The position numbers were made by a program, and so were the translations under genes. 64,000 bases of DNA, from contig CAYYTT010000002.1 in assembly GCA_964474635.1 (NCBI GenBank), forward strand, positions 6,015 to 70,014, read 5' to 3'. A model generated the notes under the pieces. That model saw only the letters and a list, made by a program, of their open reading frames with translations. It was not told the origin of the DNA and did not search any database. Shown here one piece after another: positions 1 through 40,050 of the stretch (position 1 is its first letter; every line of letters begins with the position of its first letter). The stretch comes from an uncultured Alphaproteobacteria bacterium (GTDB lineage: Bacteria > Pseudomonadota > Alphaproteobacteria > JAJFIK01).

Positions 1-1061
1 TTGGCCTGGATGGAGCGGCCGGAGGGCGTGTAATATTTGGCTGTCGTCAGGCGCAGGGCCCCGTTGGCCCCGTCATTGAGCGGGATGACCGTCTGGACGC
101 TGCCTTTGCCAAAGGACTGGGTCCCGAGCACGATGGCCCGGCGCTGGTCCTGCAGCGCGCCGGCCACGATTTCAGAGGCCGATGCCGACCCTCCATTAAT
201 TAAAACGATCACCGGCCGACCGTCGGTTAGATCGCCGCGCCGGGCGTTATACCGCTGGGTGTCCTCCGGATGGCGTCCCCGGGTTGAGACGATTTCGCCC
301 CGGTCGAGGAAGATGTCGGCCACATCGATGGCCTGGTCGAGCAGGCCGCCCGGATTGTTGCGCAGGTCCAGCACATAGCCGGCAAGCTTGCCACGCAGAT
401 CCCGGGACAGCCGACGGACTGCATCGCGCACATTCGCTTCGGTGTTTTCGTTGAAGGTGATGACACGGATATAGCCCACATCATTGCCTTCGGCGCGGTA
501 CCGCACGGCCTTCAGCTCAATGATCGCTCGCGTAATCGTGACGTCGAAGGGATCGCGCACGCCTTCGCGGTAGACCGTGATCTTGATGTCGGTACCCGGG
601 CGCCCGCGCATCAGGTCGATGGCCTCGTTGAGCGTCATGCCCAGGATCGGCGTGCCATCGAGGTGCGTGATGAGATCACCGGCCTTGATCCCGGCCCGGT
701 AGGCCGGCGTGTCGTCCATGGGCGCGACCACTTTGACCACGCCCTCGGCCAGCGTCACCTCGATTCCGAGGCCGCCGAATTCGCCGCGCGTCTGGACCTG
801 AATATCCCGGTAATTGCGCGGGCTCAGATAGCTTGAATGGGGATCGAGGCCCGCGAGCATGCCGTTTATGGCGTCCTCAATGAGCTTTTCGTCCTCAACC
901 TCGGTCACATAGTCGGACCGGACTCGCTCGAACACATCGCCAAACAGATTGAGCTGACGATAGGTTTCGGAGGTCGCCGCGGAGGCCCCTCCGGCCAGGA
1001 CCAGCAGGACCATGGCGAGCGACGCTGCGGGGAAGAGCTTTGAAACACCGTGCCTCATCAT
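1..1061 (-). CDS. ctpA: Carboxy-terminal processing peptidase, S41 family. The C-terminal end runs off the window start.
   Basis: Absent from the ORF track because it is open at the window edge. My reverse-strand translation from ATG 1061 (or 1058) reads MMRHGVSKLF, a signal peptide, YRQLNLFGDVFERVRSDY, GEFGGLGIEV, PAYRAGIKAGDLI (PDZ), LDLRNNPGGLL, VLINGGSASASEIVAGALQD and GTQSFGKGSVQ. These are typical S41A blocks. Confidence 0.9.
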   Translation of the reverse strand, partial: MMRHGVSKLFPAASLAMVLLVLAGGASAATSETYRQLNLFGDVFERVRSDYVTEVEDEKLIEDAINGMLAGLDPHSSYLSPRNYRDIQVQTRGEFGGLGIEVTLAEGVVKVVAPMDDTPAYRAGIKAGDLITHLDGTPILGMTLNEAIDLMRGRPGTDIKITVYREGVRDPFDVTITRAIIELKAVRYRAEGNDVGYIRVITFNENTEANVRDAVRRLSRDLRGKLAGYVLDLRNNPGGLLDQAIDVADIFLDRGEIVSTRGRHPEDTQRYNARRGDLTDGRPVIVLINGGSASASEIVAGALQDQRRAIVLGTQSFGKGSVQTVIPLNDGANGALRLTTAKYYTPSGRSIQA

Positions 1062-1227
1062 GGGCCACCAAGTCCTCTAGAACGTGTGAAGGCAGAGCCT
1101 GATCCTACCGACCGGCCTTTGATTTCAGTTTGACCATCCCGCGCCGTCCCGGCAAGGGAACCTCTTACAATCCAAACCGTCGTCTTCGCCCGCGCCTCGC
1201 CCGCCCCGTGTGACCGGCGCGCCGGGG

Positions 1228-2688
1228 CTAGCCACTGACATTCCGGGTCGCGCCCGTGAGCCAGGGCAGCGGATCGACCGGCTCGCCGTCTTTGCGCAAC
1301 TCGAAATACAGGGTCGGGCCCTGCGTGACCAGGGAGACGCCCGCACCGCCCGCCGAGGAGGCCCCGGCCACCGTCATGGCCAGGGTGCGGGCCATGGTGT
1401 CCTCGTCCTGCGCCGCCGGAACGGGGGCCGTGGCGCCCATGATTCCAATGGGCTCACCAGCCAGCAGTTCCTGTCCCACCACGGCGTAGATCTGCGCAAG
1501 GCCCGTTAAAACGAAGTGATAGCCGTCCCCGGCCGTGAGAATCAGCACCTGGCCATAATTGCGATAGGGCTGGGCGAAGGAGACCCGGGCGTCAAAGGGC
1601 GCGACGATCTGCGCGCCTGGGCGGGTGGCGAAGGTCAGGCCCTCGCTGATGTGCCCCGCATCGTCCTTGGTGCCGAAGCGCCTCACGATTCGGCCCGCCA
1701 CGGGCGCCCGCAGCCGCCCCTTGGCGGTGGCAAGGCCGGGACTGGCCGACGGACCAGGCGCGGGGGCTGGCGCCACCCGCCGCGCGCCGGAGGGGCGGGC
1801 GAGCGGCTGCAGTCCGGCGGCCCGCTCGGTGAGATCCTCAATAAGGCCCCGCAGGTCCCGGGCCTGTTCGGCGAGCTGCGCAAGACGCAGGGCCTCTTCC
1901 TTGGCGGCCTCGCGGGTCGCTTTTTCTAGGGCCTCTTTTTCCACCAGCAGCGCGGCGAGCTGTTTTTGCTCCGCGAGCAGATCGGCGCTGGCGATCTGGA
2001 GGTCGTCGCGTTCGGCCTCGATGCGGGCGCGCACATTGGTCAGGGCATCGAGTTCCCGGCCCAAGGCGGCCGCCTGTTCGTAAATGTCCGGCACGACAGA
2101 GCCCAGCAGCATGGCACTGCGCGCCGCGTTCACCGCATCGTCCGGATTGACGAGCAGGGCCGGCGGCTTGTTCTGCTCCATGGCCTGGAGCGCGGCCAGC
2201 ACGGAGACGAGGGCTTGCTTGCGGGTGCGCAGCCGGTCCACGACCGCGTTTTCCTCAACCAGAAGGCCGCCGAGGCGCGCCTCGATACGGTTCAGCCGGG
2301 CCTCGCGCTTTTGCACCTCGAATGCGGCCTCCACGGAGCGCGTCCGGATCTCCCGCATTTCCTGGGCCAGCCGCTCCGCATCGGCCTTCTGGCGGCGCAG
2401 CCTGCTGCGGCTTTCGCTGACCGTGTCCTCAAGTTCCTGGAGATGTTCAGCCGAGACATCGTCGCCCGTCGGCGGCGCGGAGACCGAGGACGGCATACCG
2501 AGTGCGAGAAAGGCGAGGGCCGCCCAGGCGCCGCGCAGCAGGCCGCTGCGGCGGGGACGGGGCCACCGGGCCGGAACGCAAGGCGTGATCAGGGGCGGGA
2601 ACGCGTGCACCGGGGGGCTCGGTCCTCGATCGGGGGGCGCGCCATGGTCGGCGGAGGCGGCCCGGTGAGCTTGCGCCGCTCCGGTCAC
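1228..2688 (-). CDS. EnvC-like murein hydrolase activator: coiled coil plus C-terminal M23/LytM peptidase domain
   Basis: 486-aa ORF. Coiled-coil middle (LQELEDTVSESRSRLRRQKADAERLAQEMREIR). C-terminal M23 block (GAQIVAPFDARVSFAQPYRNYGQVLILTAGDGYHFVLTGL, GEPIG, LYFELRKDGEPVDPLPWL). It starts 9 nt after the gpmI stop. The exact start is uncertain. Confidence 0.85.
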   Translation of the reverse strand: MTGAAQAHRAASADHGAPPDRGPSPPVHAFPPLITPCVPARWPRPRRSGLLRGAWAALAFLALGMPSSVSAPPTGDDVSAEHLQELEDTVSESRSRLRRQKADAERLAQEMREIRTRSVEAAFEVQKREARLNRIEARLGGLLVEENAVVDRLRTRKQALVSVLAALQAMEQNKPPALLVNPDDAVNAARSAMLLGSVVPDIYEQAAALGRELDALTNVRARIEAERDDLQIASADLLAEQKQLAALLVEKEALEKATREAAKEEALRLAQLAEQARDLRGLIEDLTERAAGLQPLARPSGARRVAPAPAPGPSASPGLATAKGRLRAPVAGRIVRRFGTKDDAGHISEGLTFATRPGAQIVAPFDARVSFAQPYRNYGQVLILTAGDGYHFVLTGLAQIYAVVGQELLAGEPIGIMGATAPVPAAQDEDTMARTLAMTVAGASSAGGAGVSLVTQGPTLYFELRKDGEPVDPLPWLTGATRNVSG

Positions 2689-2697
2689 GCCGTGCCG

Positions 2698-4251
2698 TCA
2701 GGACGCGGCCTTGAGAAGGGATTCGCCGGTCATCTCCGGCGGTTGAGGTTGCCCCATGAGGGCCAGAAGCGTCGGCGCGATGTCCGCCAACCGACCTTCC
2801 CTCAATGAAACCTGTGTGCCAAGTGATTCGGCGTTCACGAGCACGGCAGGCACGACAAAAGTGGTGTGAGCGGTGTGGGGCCCGCCGGTTTCCGGGTCGA
2901 GCATCAGTTCGCAATTGCCGTGATCGGCCGTGACCAGCATGCGCCCGCCGGCCTCACGCACCGACTCAATGAGCCGTCCCAAACCCTCATCGACCGCCTC
3001 AACGGCCTTGATGGCGGCCTCCAGGCTGCCCGTGTGTCCAACCATGTCCGGATTGGCGTAATTGATCACCACCAGATCGAAACCCAGGGAGCGGATGGCC
3101 TTCGTCACCGCGTCGGTCACTTCCCGGGCGGACATTTCCGGCTGCAGATCATAGGTGGCGACCTTCGGGCTCGGGATCATGATCCGCTCTTCGCCCTCGA
3201 AGACCTCTTCGCGCCCGCCATTGAGGAAAAAGGTGACATGCGGATATTTTTCGGTCTCCGCGATGCGCAGCTGCGTCAGCCCGGCCTGCGCCGTCACGCC
3301 GCCGAGGGTGTTGCTGAGGCTTTCCGGTGGAAAAAGGGCGGGCATGAATTCGGCAAGGCGCGTTGAGTACTCTACCATCCCCGCCACCGACCCCAGGCGC
3401 GGCACGCGGCGGTCAAAGCCGTCGAACTCCGGGTCGAGAAGCGCGCCCAGGATCTGACGGGCCCGGTCGGCGCGGAAATTGATGAAGATCAGCGCATCCC
3501 CGTCTTTCATGCCGCCATAACCATCGACCACCGTCGGCAGAACGAATTCGTCCGTGGTGCCCGCCGCATAGGCGGCCTCGATGGCGCCGCGCCAGTCGGC
3601 GGCGCGCTCGCCCTGTCCATCGACCAGGCAGGCATAGGCCTTTTCCACCCGTTCCCAGCGTTTGTCCCGGTCCATGGCATAATACCGTCCACAGACGGTT
3701 ACGATGCGCCCCCGCGCTTCTGGCGTCAGGCTCTCTTCAAAACGGTCGATATAGCTGGCCGCGCTTTGGGGCGGGGTGTCCCGGCCATCGAGGAAGGCGT
3801 GGATTGCGACGGGGACGTCGAATTTGTGCAAGGTATTCACAAGGGCCGTAATGTGGCGCTGATGGGAGTGCACGCCCCCGGGGCTCATGAGGCCGGCCAC
3901 ATGGACCGTACCGCCGGAGGCCTTGGCCGCATCGATGACCCCGTGCAGGGTGCCGTTCTGTTCAAAGGTGCCGGTTTCGATGGCGTGATCGATGCGGGGC
4001 AGGTCCTGCATGACCACGCGCCCGGCGCCGATGTTCATATGTCCGACTTCGGAGTTTCCCATCTGTCCTTGCGGCAGGCCCACATCGAGGCCGGACGTGT
4101 GCAGGAAGGTGCGCGGGCAACTGCTCCAGATCCGGTCGAAATTCGGCGTGTTTGCGAGGGCGACGGCATTGTTGTCCTGCGCGTCGCGCCAGCCCCAGCC
4201 ATCCAGAATGCACAGGACAACGGGGCGTTTCTGCGGGATGTCAGCGGCCAT
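2698..4251 (-). CDS. gpmI: 2,3-bisphosphoglycerate-independent phosphoglycerate mutase
   Basis: The ORF is open to 4599, but the family-typical N-terminus MAADIPQKRPVVLCILDGWGW begins at ATG 4251. Also GNSEVGHMNIGAGR, PGGVHSH, NYANPDMVGHTG and TADHGN motifs. Confidence 0.92.
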   Translation of the reverse strand: MAADIPQKRPVVLCILDGWGWRDAQDNNAVALANTPNFDRIWSSCPRTFLHTSGLDVGLPQGQMGNSEVGHMNIGAGRVVMQDLPRIDHAIETGTFEQNGTLHGVIDAAKASGGTVHVAGLMSPGGVHSHQRHITALVNTLHKFDVPVAIHAFLDGRDTPPQSAASYIDRFEESLTPEARGRIVTVCGRYYAMDRDKRWERVEKAYACLVDGQGERAADWRGAIEAAYAAGTTDEFVLPTVVDGYGGMKDGDALIFINFRADRARQILGALLDPEFDGFDRRVPRLGSVAGMVEYSTRLAEFMPALFPPESLSNTLGGVTAQAGLTQLRIAETEKYPHVTFFLNGGREEVFEGEERIMIPSPKVATYDLQPEMSAREVTDAVTKAIRSLGFDLVVINYANPDMVGHTGSLEAAIKAVEAVDEGLGRLIESVREAGGRMLVTADHGNCELMLDPETGGPHTAHTTFVVPAVLVNAESLGTQVSLREGRLADIAPTLLALMGQPQPPEMTGESLLKAAS

Positions 4252-4496
4252 GGGTGAGGGCTCCTCGGCAGATCCGTCGGCGGCGCCAAGGGGCGCGCCG
4301 GAGACACGGGAAAACGCCGAAGCGCGGTGCCCCGACGCGAAAATGTTGCAATGCACAACACCATAAGCCCGTTGACGACACGTGTCCATCGGGACGCGGG
4401 CGAAGCACCTGAGGAGCGGCGGCGCGGACCAGCCCTGATCAGGATCGACTTTGCACGAAATCGGCTGTGCGCGATTGGCGTTGTGCGTGTTCGAGG

Positions 4497-4580
4497 CCAA
4501 ACGCCAAACGCCAAACGCCAAACGCCAAACGCCAAACGCCAAACGCCAAACGCCTGACGCCTGACGCCTGACGCCTGATG
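4497..4580. repeat. Heptanucleotide microsatellite: 8 x CCAAACG, 3 x CCTGACG, 1 x CCTGATG
   Basis: Counted directly in the sequence. 12 contiguous 7-bp units in the intergenic space between gpmI and the curli operon. Confidence 0.95.
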
Positions 4581-4594
4581 GAGGGGGCGGCCAT

Positions 4595-4624
4595 GGCACC
4601 TGGGCAGCTGGGCACCTGGGCAGC
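4595..4624. repeat. Perfect 15-bp tandem duplication (GGCACCTGGGCAGCT x 2)
   Basis: Read directly. It lies 15 nt after the heptamer array. Confidence 0.9.
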
Positions 4625-5009
4625 TGAAGCGGTGCACGGGGCCGGTGATCTATTTGGCGCGCCGACGCTGGCGTTTCTGTCCCGATTTGGCACCCGATGA
4701 AGGCAGCCGGCCCCTGGGTTCAGGTCCGCAACGATCCGTGGCCAGGAAGGCGAAAATGATCCCCTTTGCCTCAAAAATCCTGGCGAAAAGTCCCGTTTTC
4801 CCGCCCCGGCGGTTTGACCCTTCCTTGACACCCGAAACCGACACCAACGTGCAGTGTGGCGAGAAGTGTGTCTTTTGTGCACGTCTTCACATTCATTGTG
4901 AAATTTCATTCATTTGGATGATGTCCAATCCGGGACAGTCCGGTACATCTCTACCAGTCCTCTCAAGCGAGGGCGGCGAGAAATTCACCGAATGGAACGG
5001 GGACGACCT

Positions 5010-5933
5010 ATGAAAAAGTTGATGATGACGGCTTCGGCCGCAGTGCTGTTGATTGCCGGCGCAACGGCTGCCCAGGCAACCGACAACGAAGTGTACATTG
5101 CGCAAACTGGCACGGGTAATAACACGGCCAATGTTTCCCAGACATTCGAGGGTAACGCGGGGCAAGCCAGCAACCGAGTTAGTGGTGAGTTTAACAAAGA
5201 CACCAAAGCGGTCCAGAACGGTGCGTGGAATAACGCCGATATTGTGCAGAACGGTCGCGATAACGTCTTGGCGTTTGGCCAGGACGGGGCAGGCACTTCA
5301 GAAACCTTCAATGATATCGACGCCACCTTTAATGGTGCCGGAAACAAATTTGAAATTTTCCAAAGTGGCGGCGTTGCGAACACAGCGTTTGTTGATGTTG
5401 ACGGCAGCTCAAACGGCGGAAATGCAAACAGAAATGTTCTGACGCAGACCGGCGGAGACAACGATATCAATCTTGATATTGGTGGTTCTGTGAACGGAAT
5501 TGATGTCACGCAGACTGGAAACTTCAACGACGCGGATGTGGATGTTGTGGGTAGCACGAACAGCTTCACTGTTACGCAGTTGCAAGACTCCAATAGCGCG
5601 GTGGTTGACATTACCGGAAGCGAAAATGGTATCGATTTCGGTGGCGAGCCTCGCAGCGGTAACAATGCTGATAGCAATTTCTCCGGCGCTGCGGCGTCTG
5701 TTGGTGTTGACGAAGCTGTTGTGCTCCAGGACGGTTTTGATAACGTCGCAAACTATCAAGTTACCGGCGATCAAAACCTGTTTGGTTTCAAGCAGAGCGG
5801 AAATCTGAATACCATCACTGGCGTGACGACTGGTAACAACAACGAAGTTGCTGTCCTTCAGTCGAGCAATGGAAATACGGCTGATTTCAGCCAGAGCGGA
5901 AATGGTAACAACATGGCGGTCGTCCAAAACTAA
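5010..5933 (+). CDS. csgA: Major curlin subunit-like protein (CsgA-like) with many imperfect curlin repeats
   Basis: Start at ATG 5010 (MKKLMMTASAAVLLIAGATAAQA signal peptide, GGAACGGGGA upstream). The rest is built from Q-x-G-x-x-N-x-A-x-x-x-Q type units (IAQTGTGNNTANVSQ, AVQNGAWNNADIVQNG, VTQTGNFNDADVDV, VLQDGFDNVANYQVTG, FKQSGNLNTITG, VLQSSNGNTADFSQSGNGNNMAVVQN). Confidence 0.8.
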   Translation: MKKLMMTASAAVLLIAGATAAQATDNEVYIAQTGTGNNTANVSQTFEGNAGQASNRVSGEFNKDTKAVQNGAWNNADIVQNGRDNVLAFGQDGAGTSETFNDIDATFNGAGNKFEIFQSGGVANTAFVDVDGSSNGGNANRNVLTQTGGDNDINLDIGGSVNGIDVTQTGNFNDADVDVVGSTNSFTVTQLQDSNSAVVDITGSENGIDFGGEPRSGNNADSNFSGAAASVGVDEAVVLQDGFDNVANYQVTGDQNLFGFKQSGNLNTITGVTTGNNNEVAVLQSSNGNTADFSQSGNGNNMAVVQN

Positions 5934-5963
5934 GGGGACATAACGCCATTACATCATAGGTAT

Positions 5964-5992
5964 TTGGGGGTGATTTTGTATATCACCCCCAA
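5964..5992 (+). terminator. Stem-loop between csgA-like and csgB-like genes
   Basis: Perfect 11-bp inverted repeat TTGGGGGTGAT / ATCACCCCCAA with the 7-nt loop TTTGTAT, 31 nt after the csgA-like stop. The T-tract after it is weak. Confidence 0.45.
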
Positions 5993-6071
5993 GTCTTGCG
6001 TGACAGGATAATTCATTTGTGAATATAGTGCCGCCATTTCCATATGCTGAGCTTGGCAAAAGGAGGGTTAA

Positions 6072-6623
6072 ATGACCATTTTTGCGCGTATGTGTCTCCT
6101 GCTGCTGTGCCTTTTTCCTGCGCTGAGTACGGCTCAGGACAGTGGGCCGCCCAGTGACTGTGTGGCGCGTACGGATGGGTCCCGCGGACAATGCGGCGGT
6201 GTCGCCCGTGTGGTGGAGCGCCGCTCCCAGTCCTTTGAAGACGCGATGCTCGACACCTTCAGCACGGAACCGCAAAGCGCGCCCCTCGACTTGCTTCCGG
6301 CCTATTCCGCAACGGGCAACCAGTCGGCCGTAGTTCAGAATGGTCAGAACAATGACGCCTTCGTCTTCATGGAGGGGCAGGGTAATCGCGCCTTCGTGCA
6401 ACAAGTGGGCGATGGCAACCAGTCATCCGTCGACATGCGGGGCACTGACCTGGGCGTGGCGGTTGTGCAACAAGGTGATCAAAATCTTTCGGATATAGGC
6501 GTGTCCGGGCGCAATCTCCTTGTGGAGCATTCCCAGATCGGAAATAGTCTCAGTTACAGTATGGATGTGGAAGGTTCGAATAAAACGATCCGTGTGAACC
6601 AGACGGGGCAAGTTTCCCCATGA
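6072..6623 (+). CDS. csgB: Minor curlin / nucleator-like protein (CsgB-like)
   Basis: Signal peptide MTIFARMCLLLLCLFPALSTAQ. Curlin-type repeats NQSAVVQNGQNNDAFVFMEGQGNRAFVQQVGDGNQSSVDM and VAVVQQGDQNLSDIG. The A versus B assignment is by size and position only. Confidence 0.6.
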   Translation: MTIFARMCLLLLCLFPALSTAQDSGPPSDCVARTDGSRGQCGGVARVVERRSQSFEDAMLDTFSTEPQSAPLDLLPAYSATGNQSAVVQNGQNNDAFVFMEGQGNRAFVQQVGDGNQSSVDMRGTDLGVAVVQQGDQNLSDIGVSGRNLLVEHSQIGNSLSYSMDVEGSNKTIRVNQTGQVSP

Positions 6624-6660
6624 GAGAATGGGTTCGCAGGGTGAGGTAAGGGGTTGCGTT

Positions 6661-7101
6661 ATGGGTTCGGATTTTAAGGTTTACAATTGCTTGTGGTGCC
6701 TCTTCGCACTCCTTGGCGCAGTTTGTTTGTCAGGCGCCGCCCACGCCGGTGAATTGGTGTATCGACCGATTAGTCCGTCTTTCGGTGGAAACCCTTTTAT
6801 TTCGAGCAATCAACTTGCCGTCGCCAATATTGAAAATCGCTTTGTCGAGGAGCCGCAATCTTTTCAAAGCGACCCTCTCGACGATTTCACAGATTCAATC
6901 CAACGCCGGATTTTGTCGGAACTGTCACGAGATATCACTGACGCCATATTTGGCGACAACGCGGAAGAAAGTGGTGTGTTCGAAATCGAAGGCACAATCA
7001 TTTCCTTCGAGACAGTGGGCGATGAAATCAACATTGCAATCACCGACGATACCGGTGCCTCAACCAGCATCACCGTTCCGAGCATCCAGTCGACTTTCTG
7101 A
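6661..7101 (+). CDS. csgF: Curli assembly component CsgF
   Basis: Signal peptide, then GELVYRPISPSFGGNPFISSNQLAVANIENRF. This parallels the E. coli CsgF N-terminus (NPNFGGNP, LLNSAQAQN). An alternative start is at 6628. Confidence 0.75.
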   Translation: MGSDFKVYNCLWCLFALLGAVCLSGAAHAGELVYRPISPSFGGNPFISSNQLAVANIENRFVEEPQSFQSDPLDDFTDSIQRRILSELSRDITDAIFGDNAEESGVFEIEGTIISFETVGDEINIAITDDTGASTSITVPSIQSTF

Positions 7102-7193
7102 GGCAATCCGTCGGGGTGCGAATCCGGTCTGAGCATGTGATCCGCAGGCGCCATGATGATGGCGGGCGCAGCGCGGAACCATCCGAGAGTTAG

Positions 7194-8243
7194 GTGAGTT
7201 TCAGTGTGATGGTCAGGAAGCGAACCGTTGTCCTGCCTTTGGTGCGGACAGTCTGTGCTTTGCTGACCCTTGGCATGGTGTCGGCGTGCTCCCTCAATGG
7301 GACGCCCCCGACGGGCACCCCGCCGAAAGTCGCTCGGACCCTGCCCGTCACAAAGCAACTCATGCTGTTGCCGCCGCCGGAACGCGTGGTCGATGTGGGC
7401 GTGTACAGTTTCCCGGATCTCACGGGACAGAATAAGCCCGGCGAGAATTTCGCGAATTTCTCCAAGGCCGTCACGCAAGGCGCCTCGGCCTATTTGACCG
7501 AGGCCCTGCTGCGCGCGGGGCAAGGCAGCTGGTTCTCCGTGACCGAGCGCAGTGGCCTGAACAATCTGCTCCAGGAGCGGCGGATTATTCGAGGGACCCG
7601 CGAGGAATATGAGGGCAAGGGCAATGGCCTCCTGCCGCCCCTGCGCTTTGCCGGGATCATGCTTGAGGGCGGGGTCATTGCCTATGACTCCAATGTCCGA
7701 ACCGGCGGGATCGGGGCGCGCTGGCTCGGCATCGGGTCCGATATTCAGTATCGCCGCGATATTGTGACCGTGGCCTTGCGGGCGGTGAGTGTCAGCACGG
7801 GGAAGGTCCTTGCAGCCGTCAGCACGACGAAGACGGTGTATTCCATTGCGGCGCGGACGAATGTGTTCCGCTTCATTGCCGTCGATGAGATATTGGATGC
7901 GGATGCCGGCTTTTCGATCAATGAACCGCCCCAGCTCGCCGTGCGCCAGGCCGTTGAATTGGCGGTCTATTCCCTTGTTCTCGAAGGGGCCCTGAACGGT
8001 CTATGGTCCTTTGAAGACAAGAGGCAGGCACGCGGCATCCTGAAACGCTTCATTGAGACGCGCTATGATGGGTTCGGCCCGGGAGATCTGCTTGGCATCA
8101 ATGAAAAATTCGAACGGGCCACAAATCCGAATTTCGGCATGGCCACGGTGGAGATGCAAGGTGTTGAGGTCGTTCTGTCCTCACCCAATGGGGAGGCGTC
8201 CGCAGCAACGGTCCGAGACAACCGGCTCCCGAAATTGTTCTGA
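7194..8243 (+). CDS. csgG: Curli secretion channel lipoprotein CsgG
   Basis: Lipobox LTLGMVSAC. CsgG-family core VGVYSFPDLTGQNKP, KAVTQGASAYLTEALLRAGQGSWFSVTERSGLNNLLQERRI. GTG start at 7194, alternative ATG at 7209. Confidence 0.85.
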   Translation: MSFSVMVRKRTVVLPLVRTVCALLTLGMVSACSLNGTPPTGTPPKVARTLPVTKQLMLLPPPERVVDVGVYSFPDLTGQNKPGENFANFSKAVTQGASAYLTEALLRAGQGSWFSVTERSGLNNLLQERRIIRGTREEYEGKGNGLLPPLRFAGIMLEGGVIAYDSNVRTGGIGARWLGIGSDIQYRRDIVTVALRAVSVSTGKVLAAVSTTKTVYSIAARTNVFRFIAVDEILDADAGFSINEPPQLAVRQAVELAVYSLVLEGALNGLWSFEDKRQARGILKRFIETRYDGFGPGDLLGINEKFERATNPNFGMATVEMQGVEVVLSSPNGEASAATVRDNRLPKLF

Positions 8244-8307
8244 GCGGTCATGCCTGTCTCCTCGGTTGCTCGCGCCTGCTGCGCGGACAGCGGTTTGTTT
8301 CTTTTTG

Positions 8308-9003
8308 ATGGGCGGCGTTGGTACGGCGCAGGATCTTGTTGAAGGGCAGGATCTTGTTGACACGGACGATCTGGTGGCGACGGACGACCAAATTTCGGAT
8401 CCGGATGAATTTGGCAGCGATCCGCCTTTCTCGATCGGCGGATTGCATTTGGGGATGACCCTTGAGGAGATCGCGAGGGTCCACCCGTCCCTCTCGACAC
8501 AGAACGCCCCTTTCTCGGATGCCATCGACCGGTCAGTGCCTTTGCAAGCGGATGTGGAATCCAGTGTGGCGCGCTTTGGCTACCGGAATGTGACCTTGAA
8601 CGACGATGGGGCGGGCGCTGACCAGTCGGGGTTGACGGCGCAGTCCCTCTACCTGCCGACCGGCCTTGAAATCGCGGAGTTGACAGGGACCCTTCGCGCC
8701 ACGGGGGAGGGGGTTGTCTTCTCGATCACCTTGGAGATGGCCAGCATGATGCTCGACTGCACGGCGGTGGCTCAGGCCATGGTCCGTGACATGGGTGAGC
8801 CCACGGGACAACGCGCCGACACCGTTTTCACGTGGCGCTCCTTTACGGTCACGCGCCGTGAGACCCTCGATATGCGGTGCCAATCCGGGCAAACCCTCCT
8901 CTTGGAGCTGAGCGACCCGGGCATTTTCGAACGATTCTTACAGGGCATCGAAACAATGCGGGACGAGGCGCTTCAACGCCGTATTCCGACGCCGCGCTAT
9001 TGA
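8308..9003 (+). CDS. Hypothetical exported protein with an acidic 6-aa repeat N-terminus, directly downstream of csgG
   Basis: Frame is open from 8053 but overlaps csgG until 8243. Plausible starts are TTG 8266 (gives a signal-like LAPAARTAVCFFLMGGVGTAQ) or ATG 8308. I recognise no family. Confidence 0.5.
   Translation: MGGVGTAQDLVEGQDLVDTDDLVATDDQISDPDEFGSDPPFSIGGLHLGMTLEEIARVHPSLSTQNAPFSDAIDRSVPLQADVESSVARFGYRNVTLNDDGAGADQSGLTAQSLYLPTGLEIAELTGTLRATGEGVVFSITLEMASMMLDCTAVAQAMVRDMGEPTGQRADTVFTWRSFTVTRRETLDMRCQSGQTLLLELSDPGIFERFLQGIETMRDEALQRRIPTPRY
8329..8389 (+). repeat. 18-bp in-frame tandem repeat (about 3.4 units) encoding QDLVEG/QDLVDT/DDLVAT/DD
   Basis: CAGGATCTTGTTGAAGGG, CAGGATCTTGTTGACACG, GACGATCTGGTGGCGACG, then a partial GACGACC. 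Read directly. Confidence 0.8.
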
Positions 9004-9130
9004 AGCGGTTTGCGTTCAAAGCCCGTGCGGCGCACCGATGCCCTGGGGCATGAGAGAGAACAACAACAAGGCAATGCGGGCATTCAGATCGCCGCTTTGC
9101 CACTTGGCCAAAAGTGGTGATACCGTGAGT

Positions 9131-10114
9131 ATGCTGAAGAGTTTGATGGGGGGCAACAGATCGCGTCTTTTCTCAGTTCTCTTCGCGATTCTGCCGATTG
9201 CTCCGATTGCGGCAAGTCTGTCCGTGACGCCCGCTCCGGATGCCTCCAGTGACCAGGGCACGGGCCCGGCTCCCCAGGCGGCGCCGGCCCGCGCGCCGGG
9301 CTTTCAGGAATGCGGCGATTGCCCCCGGATGGTGGTTGTTCCGCCGGGCACCATGACCATTGGCAAATCCGGCAATCAGGGCGAGCCGGACGAACGTCCT
9401 AGCCGGGTCGTGGCCTTCTCCGCGCCCTTTGCGGTCAGCGAAACGGAGGTCACCGTTGAACAATTCGCCGCCTTCGTGAACGACACCGGATATGAGATGG
9501 GCTTGGGCTGTTGGACCTACGAAAACGATGTCTTCGCCGAACGTGTCGATCGCTCCTGGATCAATCCGGGTTATGCAAGAACCGGGGCAAGCCCGGTGAC
9601 TTGCGTGTCGTGGATCGATGCCATGACATATGCCAAATGGCTCAGTGCAAAGACCAAAGCGACCTATCGTCTTCTTTCCGAGAGCGAATGGGAATACGCG
9701 GCACGGGGCGGGCGCACGACGCCTTTCAGTTGGGGCAGCGAGCCGTCCTCATGCCGGCGCGGGGCCGTTGACGGGGCCTCGAACCGTCTGTGCGGTGGGC
9801 AGGGGCCACTCCCGGTCGGGACATTTCAACGCAATCGGTTCGGACTTTTCGACGTGCATGGCAATGTTTGGGAATGGGTTCTCGATTGCTGGAATGGGTC
9901 CTACGCAACTTTGGCCGCCAACGGTGCACCTAATGGCAATGGCGACTGTCAGCGGGCCGTTTTGCGCGGCGGCTCGTGGCTCACTTATCCCGCCGCTCAA
10001 CGCTTAGGGCTGCGCAATTGGTTGAGCCGTACGGAGCGTCAAAGCCATGTGGGATTTCGGATCCTTCGCCCCTTCTCCGCACAGGAACTAAACGCCAATC
10101 GCATCGGGTTATGA
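9131..10114 (+). CDS. Exported formylglycine-generating-enzyme family (SUMF1/EgtB/PvdO-like) domain protein
   Basis: Start at ATG 9131 gives the signal-like MLKSLMGGNRSRLFSVLFAILPIAPIAASL. FGE-sulfatase domain blocks: MVVVPPGTMTIG, ERPSRVVAFSAPFAVSETEVTVEQFAAFV, PVTCVSWIDAMTYAKWLS, YRLLSESEWEYAARGG, FGLFDVHGNVWEW, LRGGSW, GFRILR. Confidence 0.8.
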   Translation: MLKSLMGGNRSRLFSVLFAILPIAPIAASLSVTPAPDASSDQGTGPAPQAAPARAPGFQECGDCPRMVVVPPGTMTIGKSGNQGEPDERPSRVVAFSAPFAVSETEVTVEQFAAFVNDTGYEMGLGCWTYENDVFAERVDRSWINPGYARTGASPVTCVSWIDAMTYAKWLSAKTKATYRLLSESEWEYAARGGRTTPFSWGSEPSSCRRGAVDGASNRLCGGQGPLPVGTFQRNRFGLFDVHGNVWEWVLDCWNGSYATLAANGAPNGNGDCQRAVLRGGSWLTYPAAQRLGLRNWLSRTERQSHVGFRILRPFSAQELNANRIGL

Positions 10115-10179
10115 AGGGGGCAAGGGAGTTTGATAGGGGAAGTCTGGTAGGGGGAGTTTGATAAGGCGACGTGGGCCCG

Positions 10180-10890
10180 TCACACCCTGAGTGATTGGAG
10201 CAAAAACGTCGCCAATTCGCTTTGCCGCGATGTCCCGGTTTTGGCAAACAAGGAACGCAATTGCGTACGGATTGTGGTCGCGGCGACATTCCGATGTTGA
10301 GCGATCTCAGCGACGCTGGACCCCTTCAGCAAGAGACGACCAAGTTCCAGTTCACTGGATGTAAAAGAAAAAAGTGTTTTCCAATGATTACAGTATGAGA
10401 TATCAATTTTATTCATTCTGCAGATGGAAATTTGCAATCCTCCGATGTCACCGTCTTTTATCACAAAGCAAAAGGATGCAAGTGCGTTTAGTCCTTTGTC
10501 CCGTATAGAAATATAATGGGGTGCGGGGAATTTCTTTAATTCCTTTGGTCCTTGAATAATATCTCGAATTTTGGACTCAAAAGATGGAATTTGAAAATCA
10601 ATGACTCCAGACGGCGTGCTGGACCAAATTTTTTTATTTAAGCTATCACTCAATGCTTGCCTATTCGCCATCAGAATTTTTCTGTCTCTTCTGATCCAAA
10701 TCCGGGAAATGGATTGATGATCTTCAATTACAGGAAAAGACCAGGTCTGATCAGAATTGACCAGCATATCGCCGGCAGAGTCGCTTATATCAAGAGAGTA
10801 GCATTCATGATTGGATGAAAATGCAGGAGATCCTTTCTTGCTCTTCAAAGGTTGTTTTTTGCGAGAGTATTTTTCCCCCTGAACGCTCAT
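10180..10890 (-). CDS. LuxR/FixJ-family HTH transcriptional regulator with an unassigned N-terminal domain, in an AT-rich gene
   Basis: C-terminal GerE/LuxR HTH (SSELELGRLLLKGSSVAEIAQHRNVAATTIRTQLRSLFAKTGTSRQSELATFLL). I prefer ATG 10890 because of the strong SD (CAAGGGGAGAAAAATG). The ORF is open to GTG 11043. Confidence 0.75.
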   Translation of the reverse strand: MSVQGEKYSRKKQPLKSKKGSPAFSSNHECYSLDISDSAGDMLVNSDQTWSFPVIEDHQSISRIWIRRDRKILMANRQALSDSLNKKIWSSTPSGVIDFQIPSFESKIRDIIQGPKELKKFPAPHYISIRDKGLNALASFCFVIKDGDIGGLQISICRMNKIDISYCNHWKTLFSFTSSELELGRLLLKGSSVAEIAQHRNVAATTIRTQLRSLFAKTGTSRQSELATFLLQSLRV

Positions 10891-11285
10891 TTTTCTCCCC
10901 TTGAACGAAGCGCCGGCAAATTTATGGCTCGATATGTAAAAAGCGATGAACACGGTTCGCATCTTTTCCGGGCGATTTTCAATATAATTGGTATATGGAT
11001 AAGGACGGTCAAGAAAAAAGTAAAACCCGCCGCGAAGTGCCACTCTTATAAGTAATACCGGCCACCTTCATTTTTCAAAAATAGTGACACTGAAGACCGG
11101 TGCCGGACGTTAGACTGTTCTGTGGTAAGAGGAAATGGCAGCGAATGGTGCTCCCGAAAACCACGTAGTCCGGCGAATTTCAGACGCTCTGCGTCTAATT
11201 CGAAGCATCGTGTATTTCAAAGCACCGGGAAAAAGTGGCGTTCGGCCGAAAAAATAAGTCTTTATACTGACTGCAGTATGGTTTC

Positions 11286-11774
11286 TCACTCCCGGTGATA
11301 CGGGTGGCCTGCTAAAATTGTTGCGGCGCGGTATATCTGCTCAAGGACCATCACGCGGGCGAGCATATGGGGCCAGGTGGCCGCTCCGAAGCTCACTGTG
11401 AGGTCGGCGTCCTCGCGCAAATCCGGGTCGAGGCCGGCGGCCCCGCCAATGAGGAGCGTCGTGGCCGGCGAGCCCTGGTCGCGCCAGGCGGCGATGCGCT
11501 CGGCGAAACCTTTGGAGGGCAGGGGGGCGCCCCGTTCATCAAGGGCAATGACTTTGCCGCCGGGCACGAGGGCCTTGCGCAGCTTGTCTGCTTCGCCGGC
11601 CTTGGCCTCGCGCGAGCCGGGTTTTGCCCCCCCGCCGTCCTCCCATTCCATCACCTCAAGGGGCTTTAGTCCGAGCGGGCGGGCGAGCGCGTCGAAGCGG
11701 GTGCGGTAATCTTCACATAGACTGCGTTCAGGCGACCGGCGCATCCGGCCGATCGCCGCCACAATAAGTTTCAC
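11286..11774 (-). CDS. rlmH: 23S rRNA (pseudouridine1915-N3)-methyltransferase RlmH (SPOUT)
   Basis: MKLIVAAIGRMRRSPE, KVIALDERG, TLLIGGAAGL, SFGAATWPHMLARVMVLEQIYRAATILAGHPYHRE. Typical size of 162 aa. Confidence 0.9.
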   Translation of the reverse strand: MKLIVAAIGRMRRSPERSLCEDYRTRFDALARPLGLKPLEVMEWEDGGGAKPGSREAKAGEADKLRKALVPGGKVIALDERGAPLPSKGFAERIAAWRDQGSPATTLLIGGAAGLDPDLREDADLTVSFGAATWPHMLARVMVLEQIYRAATILAGHPYHRE

Positions 11775-11916
11775 AATGAATTCCCATGCCGACCGGAGGT
11801 GGCAGGCGCAAGCACAGCATCACGGGCCCGCCGGTGCCGGGCGATTCAGGGACCCACCGCGCACGGTTTTAACGCCGAGCAACGGACGCCCAACGCAAAC
11901 CGCCGTGCCCAAGGCA

Positions 11917-12372
11917 TCAGGACGCGGTGCGCGCGGCCTCCACACCCCAGATCTTCTCAAGATTGTAGAATTCGCGCACCTCGGGGCGGAACAGGTGGAC
12001 GATCACATCGCCCACATCGATCAGCACCCAGTCGCAATGGGGCAAGCCCTCAACCTGCACGGTCCCAAGACCAGCGTCTTTAAGATTCCGGGCAAGGCGA
12101 TCGGCAATGGCGCCCACATGGCGATGGGAGCGGCCGGAAGCGATGACCATATAATCGGCCACGCTTGATTTGCCGGTCAGATCAATGGTCACCAGATCCT
12201 CAGCCTTATCATCGTCGAGGGAGGTGAGGATCAGATCCTTTAATCCCGCTCCCGAAGGCGCCGCCTTCTCAGGAGCTGGGGGTCTATCGTCGCCGGGTGC
12301 GGCGCGATTCAGAGTGGCAAGGCTCAGAGTTCCGGTCCTCTCGCTTGGGCATCTTGCACCGAGATGCATCAA
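11917..12372 (-). CDS. rsfS: Ribosome silencing factor RsfS (Iojap-like)
   Basis: LILTSLDDDKAEDLVTIDLTGKSSVADYMVIASGRSHRHVGAIADRL, DWVLIDVGDVIVHLFRPEVREFYNLEKIW. The N-terminal extension and start are uncertain. Confidence 0.85.
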   Translation of the reverse strand: MMHLGARCPSERTGTLSLATLNRAAPGDDRPPAPEKAAPSGAGLKDLILTSLDDDKAEDLVTIDLTGKSSVADYMVIASGRSHRHVGAIADRLARNLKDAGLGTVQVEGLPHCDWVLIDVGDVIVHLFRPEVREFYNLEKIWGVEAARTAS

Positions 12373-12453
12373 ACCACATGGGACGATAGCATAGGTGCCG
12401 GTTTATGAAAATCACCGTCGGTCCCGCACCGTTCCAACCAGGGGAGCCACACC

Positions 12454-14645: not shown

Positions 14646-15013
14646 GGTTCCCTTTCCCCCGGCACGCTGATGCGGCCGGTCGTTTCAGTGGCACTGGCGG
14701 GGCGAGTGTACGAACGTCGCCCAATTCAACCATATTAAGAGTGAGTCGCGGATCAGGGGAGCAGCGGCCTCGCGCAGCGCCCGACTCGGCGTTCAATGGC
14801 CGTAGAGCGCTCTTGCCCCTGGTCTTTTTGCCGGATCACGCGGACAGGGCGGGGCGACCTGGAGCGGTTGTTGCACACTCGTAAGGTCAAAGATCGTGCG
14901 TGTGTTCGAAAATCGGATGCCGGATGGATGGCCGCATGGTATATTCTAGTACAGGATGTACTGACGCATCGGGATGCGGGTGGAGACGCCACAAGCGTCC
15001 AGGGAGAAAGAGC

Positions 15014-19054: not shown

Positions 19055-19065
19055 GGAGAGGACCG

Positions 19066-20212: not shown

Positions 20213-20256
20213 TCCGGATAATCTCCAGCATGAAGGAAAGGGAGGGGTGGCACCCC

Positions 20257-21740: not shown

Positions 21741-21744
21741 GGGC

Positions 21745-22530: not shown

Positions 22531-22576
22531 GGAACCTTATCCTCTTTGTGGAAACGCTAGCAATCAATCGGTCAGA

Positions 22577-39630: not shown

Positions 39631-39650
39631 TGCCGGCGGCCGGGACCATG

Positions 39651-40042: not shown

Positions 40043-40050
40043 GGGAGACA

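What the first reader, a model, noticed from the sequence alone, without database searches (positions are those of the whole stretch)
4252..11285. Curli-type amyloid secretion islet splits a conserved housekeeping gene string
Seen: rsfS and rlmH (11286-12372) and gpmI, the envC-like gene and ctpA (1-4251) all lie on the minus strand. They are separated by about 7 kb of plus-strand genes (csgA-like, csgB-like, csgF, csgG, two exported proteins) plus one AT-rich minus-strand regulator. The csgA to csgF stretch and especially 10.4-11.3 kb are visibly lower in G+C than the flanks. Hand counts of two 60-nt lines in the regulator gene gave 19 and 24 G+C. Established: gpmI-envC linkage occurs in E. 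coli (gpmM-envC). From memory, rsfS-rlmH followed by an M23 peptidase and ctpA is common in Alphaproteobacteria. Curli operons without csgD/csgE have been reported in Alphaproteobacteria. Inference: the curli module was horizontally inserted into this string. I see no integrase or tRNA, so the mechanism is unclear.
Basis: partly seen in the sequence, partly recalled or inferred. Interest (0 to 1): 0.7.

Follow-up and report, generated by a model that had tools for sequence, protein, structure and literature searches.

The report
Curli gene module inserted between rlmH and gpmI
A 6.9-kb, seven-gene cassette for making curli-type surface amyloid fibres was inserted, in this lineage only, into a gene string that relatives keep unbroken. 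This is a clean but fairly ordinary example of an accessory gene cluster that moves between sites and genomes without any visible mobility gene.

Summary

**Gene content.** Pfam and NCBIfam identify ctpA, an M23/EnvC-like gene and gpmI (1-4251, minus strand) and rlmH and rsfS (11286-12372, minus strand). Between them lie two curlin-repeat genes, csgF, csgG, an exported protein with no family match, a PvdO-like FGE-fold protein and an AT-rich LuxR-type regulator.

**Empty site in relatives.** The three closest relatives available (gpmI 77-79% identical) are collinear with the window from OmpA to ctpA. Their rlmH-gpmI gap is only 145-187 bp. Fourteen more distant loci also have a tight rlmH-gpmI adjacency. 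The inserted DNA is about 4394-11285, because 4340-4393 is the conserved gpmI promoter block.

**The module sits elsewhere in relatives.** Two clade members carry the same module at other sites. One of them has the empty rlmH-gpmI site, and its module abuts an IS6-family transposase fragment.

**Trees conflict.** The module tree (window with genome D, 100% bootstrap) contradicts the host tree (window with genome B, 100%), which points to transfer within the clade.

**Composition is mixed.** luxR, csgA and csgF are outliers, while csgG-hyp-FGE looks native.

**Mechanism.** It is unknown. I found no integrase, tRNA, att or terminal repeats, or IS remnant.

**Verdict.** This is a new variant of a known kind, of moderate interest.

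The parts
1..1076 (-). ctpA (partial; C-terminal processing peptidase S41), the end of the conserved string
   Evidence: The reading frame was found. It is 81-88% identical to ctpA of L088-L091.
1228..2688 (-). M23 peptidase, EnvC-like
   Evidence: Peptidase_M23 59.7 bits. The EnvC model gives a weak hit. It is 62-70% identical to the gene in the same position in relatives.
2698..4251 (-). gpmI (2,3-bisphosphoglycerate-independent phosphoglycerate mutase)
   Evidence: TIGR01307 673 bits. P0121 is the 100% identical database entry.
4340..4393 (-). Conserved gpmI upstream block, with a promoter-like TGGACA-17-TATGGT at 4388-4360. It is native DNA and marks the left limit of the insert.
   Evidence: It aligns to the rlmH-gpmI spacers of L088 and L090. 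The local alignment score is 30, against a shuffle maximum of 26.
4394..11285 (.). Inserted segment (~6.9 kb; breakpoints uncertain by about 40 nt)
   Evidence: No DNA match to L088, L089 or L090, whose flanks are otherwise collinear. Tetranucleotide distance is 0.0239 against a control maximum of 0.0177.
4496..4578 (+). Heptamer tandem arrays (GCCAAAC) x8.4 then (ACGCCTG) x4, followed by a 16-mer x2 at 4595-4626. They lie inside the insert near its left end, upstream of csgA.
   Evidence: The array is unique in the window (7 matches against 0.04 expected) and absent from the 171 loci held at that point.
5011..5933 (+). Curlin-repeat subunit 1 (CsgA-like, 307 aa, signal peptide ending AAQA|T)
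   Evidence: Curlin_rpt 62.6 bits against a cut-off of 20.7. GC3 is 0.547 for this reading and 0.555 for the longer ORF from 4914.
6072..6623 (+). Curlin-repeat subunit 2 (CsgB-like, 183 aa, signal peptide)
   Evidence: Curlin_rpt 35.7 bits. It is 36-40% identical to the curlin genes of L081 and L172.
6628..7101 (+). CsgF. Its mature N-terminus YRPISPSFGGNPF resembles the CsgG-binding motif.
   Evidence: PF10614 112 bits. It is 58-59% identical to CsgF of L081 and L172. The resemblance to the CsgG-binding motif is judged from my knowledge of E. coli CsgF.
7194..8243 (+). CsgG outer-membrane channel lipoprotein (lipobox VSAC). The database start is at 7209.
   Evidence: PF03783 181 bits. NCBIfam CsgG gives 185 bits against 37 bits for HfaB. 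P0001 is 100% identical.
8266..9003 (+). hyp8: an exported protein with two conserved Cys, member of an uncharacterised family that always follows csgG
   Evidence: No Pfam or NCBIfam hit. It aligns with the genes after csgG in L081, L083 and L084. The family has 17 representatives among 1.84 billion proteins. Six of six known contexts lie directly downstream of csgG. The AF2 model has pLDDT 81.9 and no PDB match.
9038..10114 (+). Periplasmic PvdO-like FGE-fold protein (likely start 9131). It lacks the FGE catalytic Cys pair.
   Evidence: PF03781 201 bits. PDB 5hha (PvdO) matches at E 8.5e-47, and the aligned FGE Cys positions are not Cys. It is conserved after hyp8 in L081 and L172.
10180..11043 (-). 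LuxR/GerE-type regulator (likely start 10890, 236 aa). It is AT-rich (GC 0.43, GC3 0.436) and has an N-terminal domain of unknown family.
   Evidence: GerE 21.9-22.3 bits, just under the 23.5 cut-off. It is 34% identical over its full length to the L081 regulator. It is not a CsgD equivalog.
11286..11774 (-). rlmH (SPOUT methyltransferase). It is intact and marks the right limit of the insert.
   Evidence: PF02590 135 bits. It is 60-62% identical to rlmH of L088-L090.
11917..12372 (-). rsfS (ribosome silencing factor)
   Evidence: TIGR00090 122 bits.

Best explanation
A ~6.9-kb accessory module was inserted into the rlmH-gpmI spacer, just upstream of the retained gpmI promoter. This happened in the window's lineage after it split from its closest sequenced relatives.

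**What the module encodes.** It is a curli-type (type VIII secretion) functional-amyloid system.
- Two Sec-exported curlin-repeat subunits.
- The CsgG lipoprotein channel and its CsgF partner.
- Two further periplasmic proteins that travel with csgG in this clade: the hyp8 family and a PvdO-like FGE-fold protein.
- A LuxR-type regulator that presumably plays the role CsgD plays in enterobacteria.

**How it moves.** The module is a flexible element of this alphaproteobacterial clade.
- Three genomes carry it at three different sites.
- Its phylogeny disagrees with that of the hosts, so the window's copy most likely arrived by transfer from a related bacterium, not by vertical descent.
- The insertion mechanism is not visible. 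The leading guess is IS- or plasmid-mediated recombination, possibly through a circular intermediate.

**Shown:** gene identities, the empty site in relatives, alternative locations, tree conflict and compositional deviation.

**Inferred:** amyloid fibre production, the roles of hyp8, the PvdO-like protein and LuxR, and the transfer mechanism.
For: **Gene families.**

**Empty site.** L088, L089 and L090 show OmpA-OmpA-XdhC-rsfS-rlmH-gpmI-M23-ctpA with a 145-187 bp gap. blastn is collinear except for window 4240-11290.

**Ancestral adjacency.** Fourteen loci have an rlmH-gpmI gap under about 200 bp. Thirteen are alphaproteobacterial or unclassified proteobacterial MAGs and one is a Polyangia MAG.

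**gpmI promoter block retained.**

**Same module elsewhere.**
- L081 belongs to GCA_964561475.1. The module lies between an aminotransferase gene and moaE. The gpmI of that assembly is 73% identical to the window's.
- L172 belongs to GCA_964522525.1, the assembly that also has the empty site L089. The module lies next to a DDE_Tnp_IS240 fragment scoring 29 bits against a cut-off of 27.

**Tree conflict.**
- The host tree (gpmI + ctpA) places the window with L088, L089 and L090 (100% bootstrap), with L091 outside.
- The module tree (csgF + csgG + hyp) groups the window with L081 (100%), with L172 outside.
- Four-point sums, worked out by hand from the identity matrices, agree with both trees.

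**Composition.**

**Plasmid carriage.** CsgG homologues lie on alphaproteobacterial plasmids, including a mobilizable Azospirillum plasmid.

**Literature.** The alphaproteobacterial curli type without csgC, csgD and csgE is documented (PMC3521004).
Against: - There is no integrase, transposase, tRNA, target-site duplication, terminal inverted repeat or att-like core at the ends. The mechanism is therefore unsupported.
- The csgG-hyp-FGE core is compositionally native-like: tetranucleotide distance 0.0171 against a control of 0.0155 +/- 0.0023, and GC3 0.67-0.73. This fits an old or intragenomic event as well as it fits transfer.
- Low GC3 of curli modules recurs in unrelated genomes, so composition is weak evidence of foreignness.
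- The comparison genomes are MAGs. L172 is a 5-kb contig of atypical G+C (0.54 against 0.635) and could be mis-binned.
- The trees are neighbour-joining trees on 560-822 columns with few taxa.
- No relative closer than 79% gpmI identity was found, so the event cannot be dated.
- Fibre formation is untested, and CsgE and CsgC/H are absent.
Confidence: 0.72

Rival explanations
1. Intragenomic relocation. The module was inherited vertically in the clade and merely moved within the window's genome from another site into the rlmH-gpmI spacer, with no transfer between organisms.
For: - The module is present in at least two other clade members.
- The csgG-hyp-FGE core has native composition.
- CsgG divergence (64-69%) is of the same order as divergence of host proteins (gpmI 73-79%, M23 62-70%).
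Against: - The module tree conflicts with the host tree, with 100% bootstrap on both.
- luxR (GC3 0.436) and csgA/csgF (~0.55) lie far below the host range and below their L081 counterparts (0.60-0.70). Amelioration toward a GC-rich host cannot produce that.
- The other two close relatives (L088, L090) yielded no CsgG above 58% identity among the NCBI entries. MAG incompleteness weakens this point.
Confidence: 0.17
2. Ancestral position. The curli module originally lay between rlmH and gpmI and was precisely deleted in the relatives.
For: Nothing specific. The only points in its favour are the absence of mobility signatures at the ends and the native-like core.
Against: - Tight rlmH-gpmI adjacency occurs in 14 distant loci plus the 3 closest relatives. 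This would need many independent clean deletions.
- Relatives that do have the module carry it elsewhere.
- No curli gene lies near gpmI in any of the 80 gpmI loci, or near rlmH in any of the 80 rlmH loci.
Confidence: 0.03
3. Assembly artefact. The 7-kb segment is foreign DNA joined into a MAG contig by misassembly.
For: - The source is a single NCBI contig of 114,892 bp that could not be retrieved for inspection.
- The segment has atypical composition.
Against: - Two chimeric joins would have to fall exactly in one 150-bp intergenic spacer, leaving both flanks intact and collinear.
- The segment's core is native in composition.
- Its closest homologues come from the same clade.
Confidence: 0.04
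4. The module is not a curli system. It is a CsgG-family secretion or anchoring system of another kind, such as a holdfast-anchor (HfaABD-like) system or a system that secretes a non-amyloid substrate.
For: - CsgG-family proteins have many non-curli paralogues (PMC3521004).
- A csgF-csgG pair on the Azospirillum plasmid lies next to a giant DUF4347 protein and no annotated curlin gene.
- CsgE and CsgC/H are absent here.
Against: - Two genes pass the Pfam curlin-repeat threshold and are adjacent to csgF-csgG.
- The CsgG model scores 185 bits against 37 bits for HfaB.
- CsgF is specific to curli systems.
Confidence: 0.04

Closest known systems
Alphaproteobacterial curli (type VIII secretion) loci as catalogued by Dueholm et al. 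2012 (PMC3521004)
   Same: - Curlin-repeat subunits together with csgF and csgG.
- No csgC, csgD or csgE.
- CsgA and CsgB cannot be told apart outside the Gammaproteobacteria.
- All products carry signal sequences, and CsgG has a lipobox.
   Different: - There is no csgH in the window. L081 and L172 have weak CsgH-like genes.
- There are two extra conserved genes after csgG: the hyp8 family and a PvdO-like FGE-fold protein. I could not find either linked to curli in the paper library.
- There is a module-linked LuxR regulator with an unclassified N-terminal domain.
- That paper judged horizontal transfer a minor player. Here the module is demonstrably at different sites and has a tree that conflicts with the hosts.
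E. coli/Salmonella csgBAC-csgDEFG curli system
   Same: The core logic is shared: a CsgG channel, CsgF, and nucleator and major subunits with curlin repeats, controlled by a LuxR-family (GerE helix-turn-helix) regulator.
   Different: - It is a single co-directional cluster with the regulator convergent at the 3' end.
- CsgE and CsgC are absent.
- The regulator is not a CsgD equivalog (no NCBIfam CsgD hit).
- CsgG has a ~70-aa C-terminal extension.
Genomic islets (small integrase-less islands inserted between conserved core genes)
   Same: - Presence/absence at a conserved core-gene junction.
- Atypical composition.
- Cargo encoding a surface or adhesion function.
- Phylogenetic incongruence.
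   Different: - No tRNA, integrase, direct repeats or IS at the ends.
- Composition is only partly atypical.
- The nearest relatives of the cargo lie within the same clade.
IS6/IS26-family translocatable units and composite transposons
   Same: - A relative's copy of the module abuts an IS6-family transposase fragment.
- The gene order in the window is a circular permutation of that in L081, as expected if a circular intermediate reopened at a different point.
   Different: - There is no IS copy, remnant or 8-bp duplication in the window.
- The circular permutation rests on a single gene, luxR, changing ends.

Membership tests
Curli / type VIII secretion system | Secreted subunit(s) with curlin repeats (PF07012) | tested here: met
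   5011-5933 scores 62.6 bits and 6072-6623 scores 35.7 bits, against a cut-off of 20.7. Both have N-terminal signal-like segments (read from the sequence).
Curli / type VIII secretion system | CsgG outer-membrane lipoprotein channel | tested here: met
   PF03783 181 bits against a cut-off of 20.8. The NCBIfam CsgG model gives 185 bits, below the equivalog cut-off of 505, so this is a family member and not an E. coli equivalog. The lipobox VSAC is read from the sequence.
Curli / type VIII secretion system | CsgF, the surface-exposed partner of CsgG | tested here: met
   PF10614 112 bits against a cut-off of 25.8.
Curli / type VIII secretion system | CsgE periplasmic adaptor and CsgC/CsgH chaperone | tested here: not met
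   No Pfam or NCBIfam hit in any island ORF. Absence of csgE and csgC is the documented alphaproteobacterial state (PMC3521004). Weak CsgH-like genes are present in L081 and L172 only.
Curli / type VIII secretion system | CsgD-type transcriptional activator | tested here: inconclusive
   A regulator with a GerE helix-turn-helix is part of the module, but it does not match a CsgD equivalog model. Its target is unknown.
Curli / type VIII secretion system | Production of SDS-insoluble, Congo-red/ThT-binding extracellular fibres | not testable with these tools
   This needs culture or heterologous expression.
Genomic island / islet | Present at a site that is empty in related genomes | tested here: met
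   L088, L089 and L090 have the empty site. Fourteen further loci have rlmH and gpmI adjacent.
Genomic island / islet | Composition deviating from the host | tested here: met
   The whole insert has a tetranucleotide distance of 0.0239 against a control maximum of 0.0177. The deviation comes from csgA-B-F and luxR, and the csgG-hyp-FGE block is native-like.
Genomic island / islet | Integrase/transposase, tRNA target, flanking direct repeats | tested here: not met
   There is no tRNA, no mobility-gene Pfam hit in the spacer ORFs, no repeats at the ends and no IS6 remnant.
Genomic island / islet | Phylogeny of the cargo incongruent with the host | tested here: met
   Neighbour-joining trees with 200 bootstraps give a host grouping of the window with L088/L089/L090 (100%) and a module grouping of the window with L081 (100%). 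Caveat: few taxa, and the genomes are MAG bins.
IS26-type translocatable unit / composite transposon | IS copy or copies bounding the cargo, with a target duplication | tested here: not met
   None is present in the window. Only the relative L172 has a truncated IS6-family fragment.
Formylglycine-generating enzyme (for the 9038-10114 product) | Catalytic cysteine pair in the C-terminal FGE motif | tested here: not met
   The alignment to FGE structures shows LRGGSWLTYPAAQR where FGE has the Cys-containing segment. The best match is PvdO (5hha, E 8.5e-47). The fold is shared but the enzyme is not the same. The position of the catalytic Cys pair in FGE is from my knowledge.

The most novel reading that the evidence does not exclude
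The window shows a distinct alphaproteobacterial curli variant. In it, a previously undescribed exported two-cysteine protein family (hyp8, directly downstream of csgG in all six contexts examined) and a periplasmic PvdO-like FGE-fold protein would replace the missing CsgE and CsgC/H functions, or chemically modify the subunits. The whole seven-gene unit would move between chromosomal sites and genomes as a recombinase-less circular unit mobilised in trans. The hints for this are the circularly permuted gene order relative to L081 and an IS6-family remnant next to the copy in L172.
Probability: 0.25. Interest if true: 0.6.

Novelty: new variant of a known kind. Interest (0 to 1): 0.4.

Why it matters
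- **Curli mobility.** It is a clean, coordinate-level example of a curli system acting as a movable accessory module. The reference survey concluded that horizontal transfer plays only a minor role in curli spread.
- **New candidate parts.** It points to two unstudied genes that travel with csgG in this clade (the hyp8 family and a PvdO-like protein) and a dedicated LuxR-type regulator. These are concrete candidates for how Alphaproteobacteria assemble curli without CsgE, CsgC or CsgD.
- **Islets without mobility genes.** It shows that a 7-kb cluster can land between tightly linked housekeeping genes, upstream of a retained promoter, and leave no recognisable mobility signature. This is relevant to how islets are detected.

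Tried and rejected
- **tRNA scan of the whole window.** None found.
- **Repeats at the island ends.** Direct and inverted repeat search found nothing at the termini. Local alignment of the two end spacers scored 16, against a shuffle mean of 16.4, so there is no att-like core.
- **Spacer ORFs.** Pfam scans found no mobility domains.
- **RNA families.** An Rfam scan of 4000-12500 gave only a chance miRNA hit on the heptamer array.
- **IS6 remnant.** tblastx and blastn of the L172 IS6 fragment against the window found nothing.
- **Intergenic comparison.** DNA comparison of the window's and L081's module intergenic regions found no similarity. The opening point of the circular permutation could not be mapped.
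- **Source contig.** The CsgG entry P0001 is not on record for retrieval.
- **Genome-contig scan with gpmI.** Closer relatives came from the protein search instead.
- **Metagenome-contig scan with rlmH.** The best hit was 52% identical, with no gpmI or csg gene nearby, so it was uninformative.
- **hyp8 structure.** The 16-sequence model (pLDDT 81.9) still has no PDB match (best E 4e-3, TM <= 0.33).
- **HfaABD holdfast-anchor reading.** Considered and rejected, because CsgF and curlin repeats are present and HfaB scores only 37 bits.
- **A true formylglycine-generating enzyme.** Considered and rejected, because there is no Cys pair and the protein is PvdO-like.

Full report
**1. Observation**

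- On the minus strand lie a partial ctpA (1-~1076), an M23/EnvC-like peptidase (1228-2688) and gpmI (2698-4251; TIGR01307, 673 bits). Also on the minus strand are rlmH (11286-11774) and rsfS (11917-12372).
- Between them, on the plus strand, are:
  - a 307-aa curlin-repeat protein (5011-5933; 62.6 bits against a cut-off of 20.7);
  - a second curlin-repeat protein (6072-6623);
  - CsgF (6628-7101) and CsgG (7194-8243);
  - an exported protein with no family match (8266-9003, here called hyp8);
  - an FGE-sulfatase-fold protein (9038-10114).
- On the minus strand, a LuxR/GerE-type regulator follows (10180-11043, probably starting at 10890).
- G+C falls to 0.50-0.53 over 4750-7250 and to 0.40-0.46 over 10250-11250. 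The flanks are 0.62-0.72.
- The tetranucleotide distance of the segment from the rest of the window is 0.0239. For 92 same-sized control segments the mean is 0.0115, sd 0.0017 and maximum 0.0177.
- There is no tRNA in the 64 kb.

**2. The site is empty in relatives**

A protein search with gpmI found the source entry (100% identical) and four relatives at 73-79% identity. The next tier is Azospirillum at about 66%, so the host is an uncultured alphaproteobacterium near the Azospirillaceae/Rhodospirillales.

- Three relatives were examined: L088 (GCA_050331455.1), L089 (GCA_964522525.1) and L090 (GCA_964449455.1). All show OmpA-OmpA-XdhC-rsfS-rlmH-gpmI-M23-ctpA-YibQ-like-NUDIX, with an rlmH-gpmI gap of 145-187 bp.
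- The window has the same outer genes: XdhC at 12454-13482 and OmpA genes at 13518-14645 and 14900-16120.
- blastn shows the relatives collinear with window 16499-11291 and 4239-1. Nothing matches 4240-11290.
- Among 80 more distant gpmI loci, 14 have rlmH within about 200 bp upstream of gpmI. Thirteen are alphaproteobacterial or unclassified proteobacterial MAGs and one is a Polyangia MAG. None has a curli gene there.
- The adjacency is therefore ancestral, and the 7 kb is a lineage-specific insertion.

**3. Boundaries**

- The relatives' spacer contains a conserved block (GGACAC...TATAnT...GTGCATTGCA) that aligns to window 4340-4393 on the minus strand. The alignment score is 30, against a shuffle maximum of 26.
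- This block coincides with a promoter-like TGGACA-17-TATGGT at 4388-4360. The gpmI promoter was therefore kept.
- The insert is about 4394-11285, with each breakpoint uncertain by about 40 nt. rlmH and gpmI are both intact.
- The two ends share no repeat (score 16 against a shuffle mean of 16.4). There are no terminal inverted or direct repeats, no mobility-domain ORFs, no Rfam family and no IS remnant.

**4. The module is a unit found elsewhere in the clade**

The closest CsgG outside the source (69% identical) lies on L081, a 26-kb contig of GCA_964561475.1.

- L081 carries a luxR homologue, a CsgH-like gene, a curlin gene, csgF, csgG, a hyp8 homologue and the FGE-fold gene. They sit between an aminotransferase gene and moaE-moaD-pgsA-uvrC.
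- Identities to the window are 69% (CsgG), 58% (CsgF), 54% (FGE-fold), 40% (curlin), 35% (LuxR) and 32% (hyp8).
- The same assembly supplies a gpmI that is 73% identical to the window's (L091), so it is a clade member. That contig starts only 226 bp upstream of gpmI, so its rlmH junction is unseen.

A second copy lies on L172, a 5.2-kb contig of GCA_964522525.1. This is the very assembly whose rlmH-gpmI site is empty (L089).

- L172 carries a CsgH-like gene, a curlin gene, csgF, csgG, hyp8 and the FGE-fold gene, followed by a truncated IS6-family transposase (DDE_Tnp_IS240, 29 bits against a cut-off of 27).
- Three clade genomes therefore carry the module at three different places.

Gene order also differs. 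In L081 luxR lies upstream of the structural genes and is divergent. In the window it lies downstream and is convergent. The two orders are circular permutations of each other.

**5. Non-vertical history**

- A neighbour-joining tree of gpmI + ctpA (822 columns, 200 bootstraps) places the window with L088, L089 and L090 at 100%, and L091 outside.
- A tree of csgF + csgG + hyp8 (560 columns) places the window's module with L081 at 100%, and L172 outside.
- Four-point sums, which I worked out by hand from the identity matrices, agree with both trees. The window's module is the long branch, and long-branch attraction would pull it toward the outgroup and away from L081.
- This conflict is the best evidence for transfer between clade members over relocation of a vertically inherited module.
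- CsgG homologues also occur on alphaproteobacterial plasmids, including a mobilizable 351-kb Azospirillum plasmid. There csgF-csgG lie a few kb from a recombinase gene.
- Caveats: all comparison genomes are MAGs. L172 is short and has atypical G+C (0.54 against 0.635 for L089), so it could be mis-binned. Taxon sampling is thin.

**6. Composition is heterogeneous and is weak evidence on its own**

- GC3 of the 50 other ORFs picked in the window ranges from 0.606 to 0.825. luxR (0.436), csgF (0.541) and csgA (0.555) fall below that range. csgB (0.65), the FGE-fold gene (0.67), hyp8 (0.70) and csgG (0.73) fall inside it.
- By tetranucleotides, the csgG-hyp8-FGE block is indistinguishable from the host (0.0171 against 0.0155 +/- 0.0023).
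- csgA-B-F (0.0367 against 0.0186 +/- 0.0029) and luxR plus its spacer (0.0583 against 0.0246 +/- 0.0036) are strong outliers.
- The same gradient, with the module lower than its flanks and luxR/csgA/csgF lowest, appears in L081, and a module-wide deficit appears in L084. Low GC3 is thus a recurrent property of these modules and does not date the insertion.
- The window's luxR is far more AT-rich than its L081 homologue (GC3 0.436 against 0.695). Amelioration in a GC-rich host cannot explain this, so the islet may be a mosaic.

**7. What it does (inferred)**

- All six structural products begin with signal-like hydrophobic segments, and CsgG has a lipobox (VSAC).
- Mature CsgF begins ...YRPISPSFGGNPF.... 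From my knowledge, this resembles the N-terminal segment of E. coli CsgF that plugs into the CsgG channel.
- The most likely function is Sec export of the two curlins, passage through a CsgG-CsgF channel and nucleated polymerisation on the cell surface, under control of the linked LuxR-type regulator.
- CsgE, CsgC and CsgD are absent, as documented for Alphaproteobacteria (PMC3521004). CsgH is not found in the window.
- hyp8 belongs to a very small family. Only 17 representatives among 1.84 billion proteins reach E <= 1e-3.
  - It lies directly downstream of csgG in all six contexts examined: the window, L081, L083, L084, L172 and L173/174.
  - It has two nearly invariant cysteines.
  - A confident AF2 model (pLDDT 81.9) has no PDB match.
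- The FGE-fold protein is PvdO-like (5hha, E 8.5e-47) and lacks the FGE cysteine pair. It is linked to hyp8 in the three clade genomes only.
- Both proteins are candidate periplasmic accessory factors, but nothing here tests that.

**8. Comparison with known systems and novelty**

- This is a member of the alphaproteobacterial curli type of Dueholm et al. 2012, carried on an integrase-less islet.
- Three things are new relative to that description:
  - the two csgG-linked accessory genes, for which no paper in the library links csgG with formylglycine/FGE in a relevant way;
  - a module-specific LuxR regulator with an unclassified N-terminal domain;
  - direct evidence that the module changes location and host, whereas the survey inferred little horizontal transfer.
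- None of this would greatly surprise a specialist. I rate it a new variant of a known kind with interest 0.4.

**9. Rivals**

- Intragenomic relocation remains possible (about 0.17).
- Ancestral position with repeated precise loss, assembly chimera, and a non-curli CsgG system are each unlikely, for the reasons given in the rival entries.

Noticed in passing
window 4496-4578 and 4595-4626: Perfect heptamer arrays (GCCAAAC) x8.4 and then (ACGCCTG) x4 are followed by a 16-mer x2. They lie inside the inserted DNA, between the gpmI promoter block and csgA. The array is unique in the window and absent from the 171 loci held at that point. It could be a slippage-prone, phase-variable spacer, but this is untested.
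   Followed up: partly
window 8266-9003; L081 8486-9214; L083 3535-4212; L084 11008-11673; L172 2779-3501; L173 2202-2966: This uncharacterised exported protein family has two conserved Cys and an HP motif. It lies directly after csgG in six of six contexts. It has only 17 representatives among 1.84 billion proteins, no Pfam model and no PDB fold match, despite a model at pLDDT 81.9.
   Followed up: yes
L172 4746-5069 (GCA_964522525.1 contig CAZFWG010000136.1): A truncated IS6-family transposase (DDE_Tnp_IS240, profile positions 10-44 of 139) lies immediately after the FGE-fold gene, at the end of a 5-kb contig with low G+C. This suggests IS-associated carriage of the module in a relative whose rlmH-gpmI site is empty.
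   Followed up: partly
window 5011-11043 versus L081 3834-10413: The gene order is circularly permuted. luxR is upstream and divergent in L081, but downstream and convergent in the window. The rest of the module has the same order and orientation.
   Followed up: partly
L081, L083, L084, L172 (curli modules and flanks): Curli modules have lower GC3 than their flanks in L081, L084 and L172, and less clearly in L083. In L084 the module is 0.77-0.87 against 0.94-0.97 in the flanks. luxR, csgA and csgF are usually the lowest.
   Followed up: partly
L002 8796-10001; L009 and L049 ~9320-9990: Other alphaproteobacteria carry small insertions in the same rlmH-gpmI spacer. L002 has an ORF with a DPPY motif, which suggests a methyltransferase. 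L009 and L049 share a conserved ~200-aa exported protein. The junction seems permissive for insertions.
   Followed up: partly
window ~16900-23300: There is a second synteny break. Beyond the shared GST-like region, the window has flagellar genes (FliK-like, FlgH, FlgA, FlgG, FlgF), where L088 and L089 have CoA-transferase and ATP synthase genes.
   Followed up: no
L175 (Azospirillum sp. TSA2s plasmid p2, NZ_CP039644.1 194797-209624): A csgF-csgG pair on a mobilizable plasmid lies next to a 1,642-aa DUF4347 protein, two hypothetical genes, a helix-turn-helix regulator, a radical SAM/SPASM gene and a recombinase gene. No curlin gene is annotated, so this may be a different CsgG-dependent system.
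   Followed up: no
window 25001-25500, 31501-32000, 40001-40750: There are other local G+C dips (0.51-0.56) in the window. They are smaller than the islet and were not examined.
   Followed up: no
window 18309-18391, 39650-39691, 45212-45259: There are further tandem repeats: a 21/42-nt array encoding Pro-rich repeats inside the FliK-like gene, a 14-mer x3 and a 15-mer x3.2.
   Followed up: no
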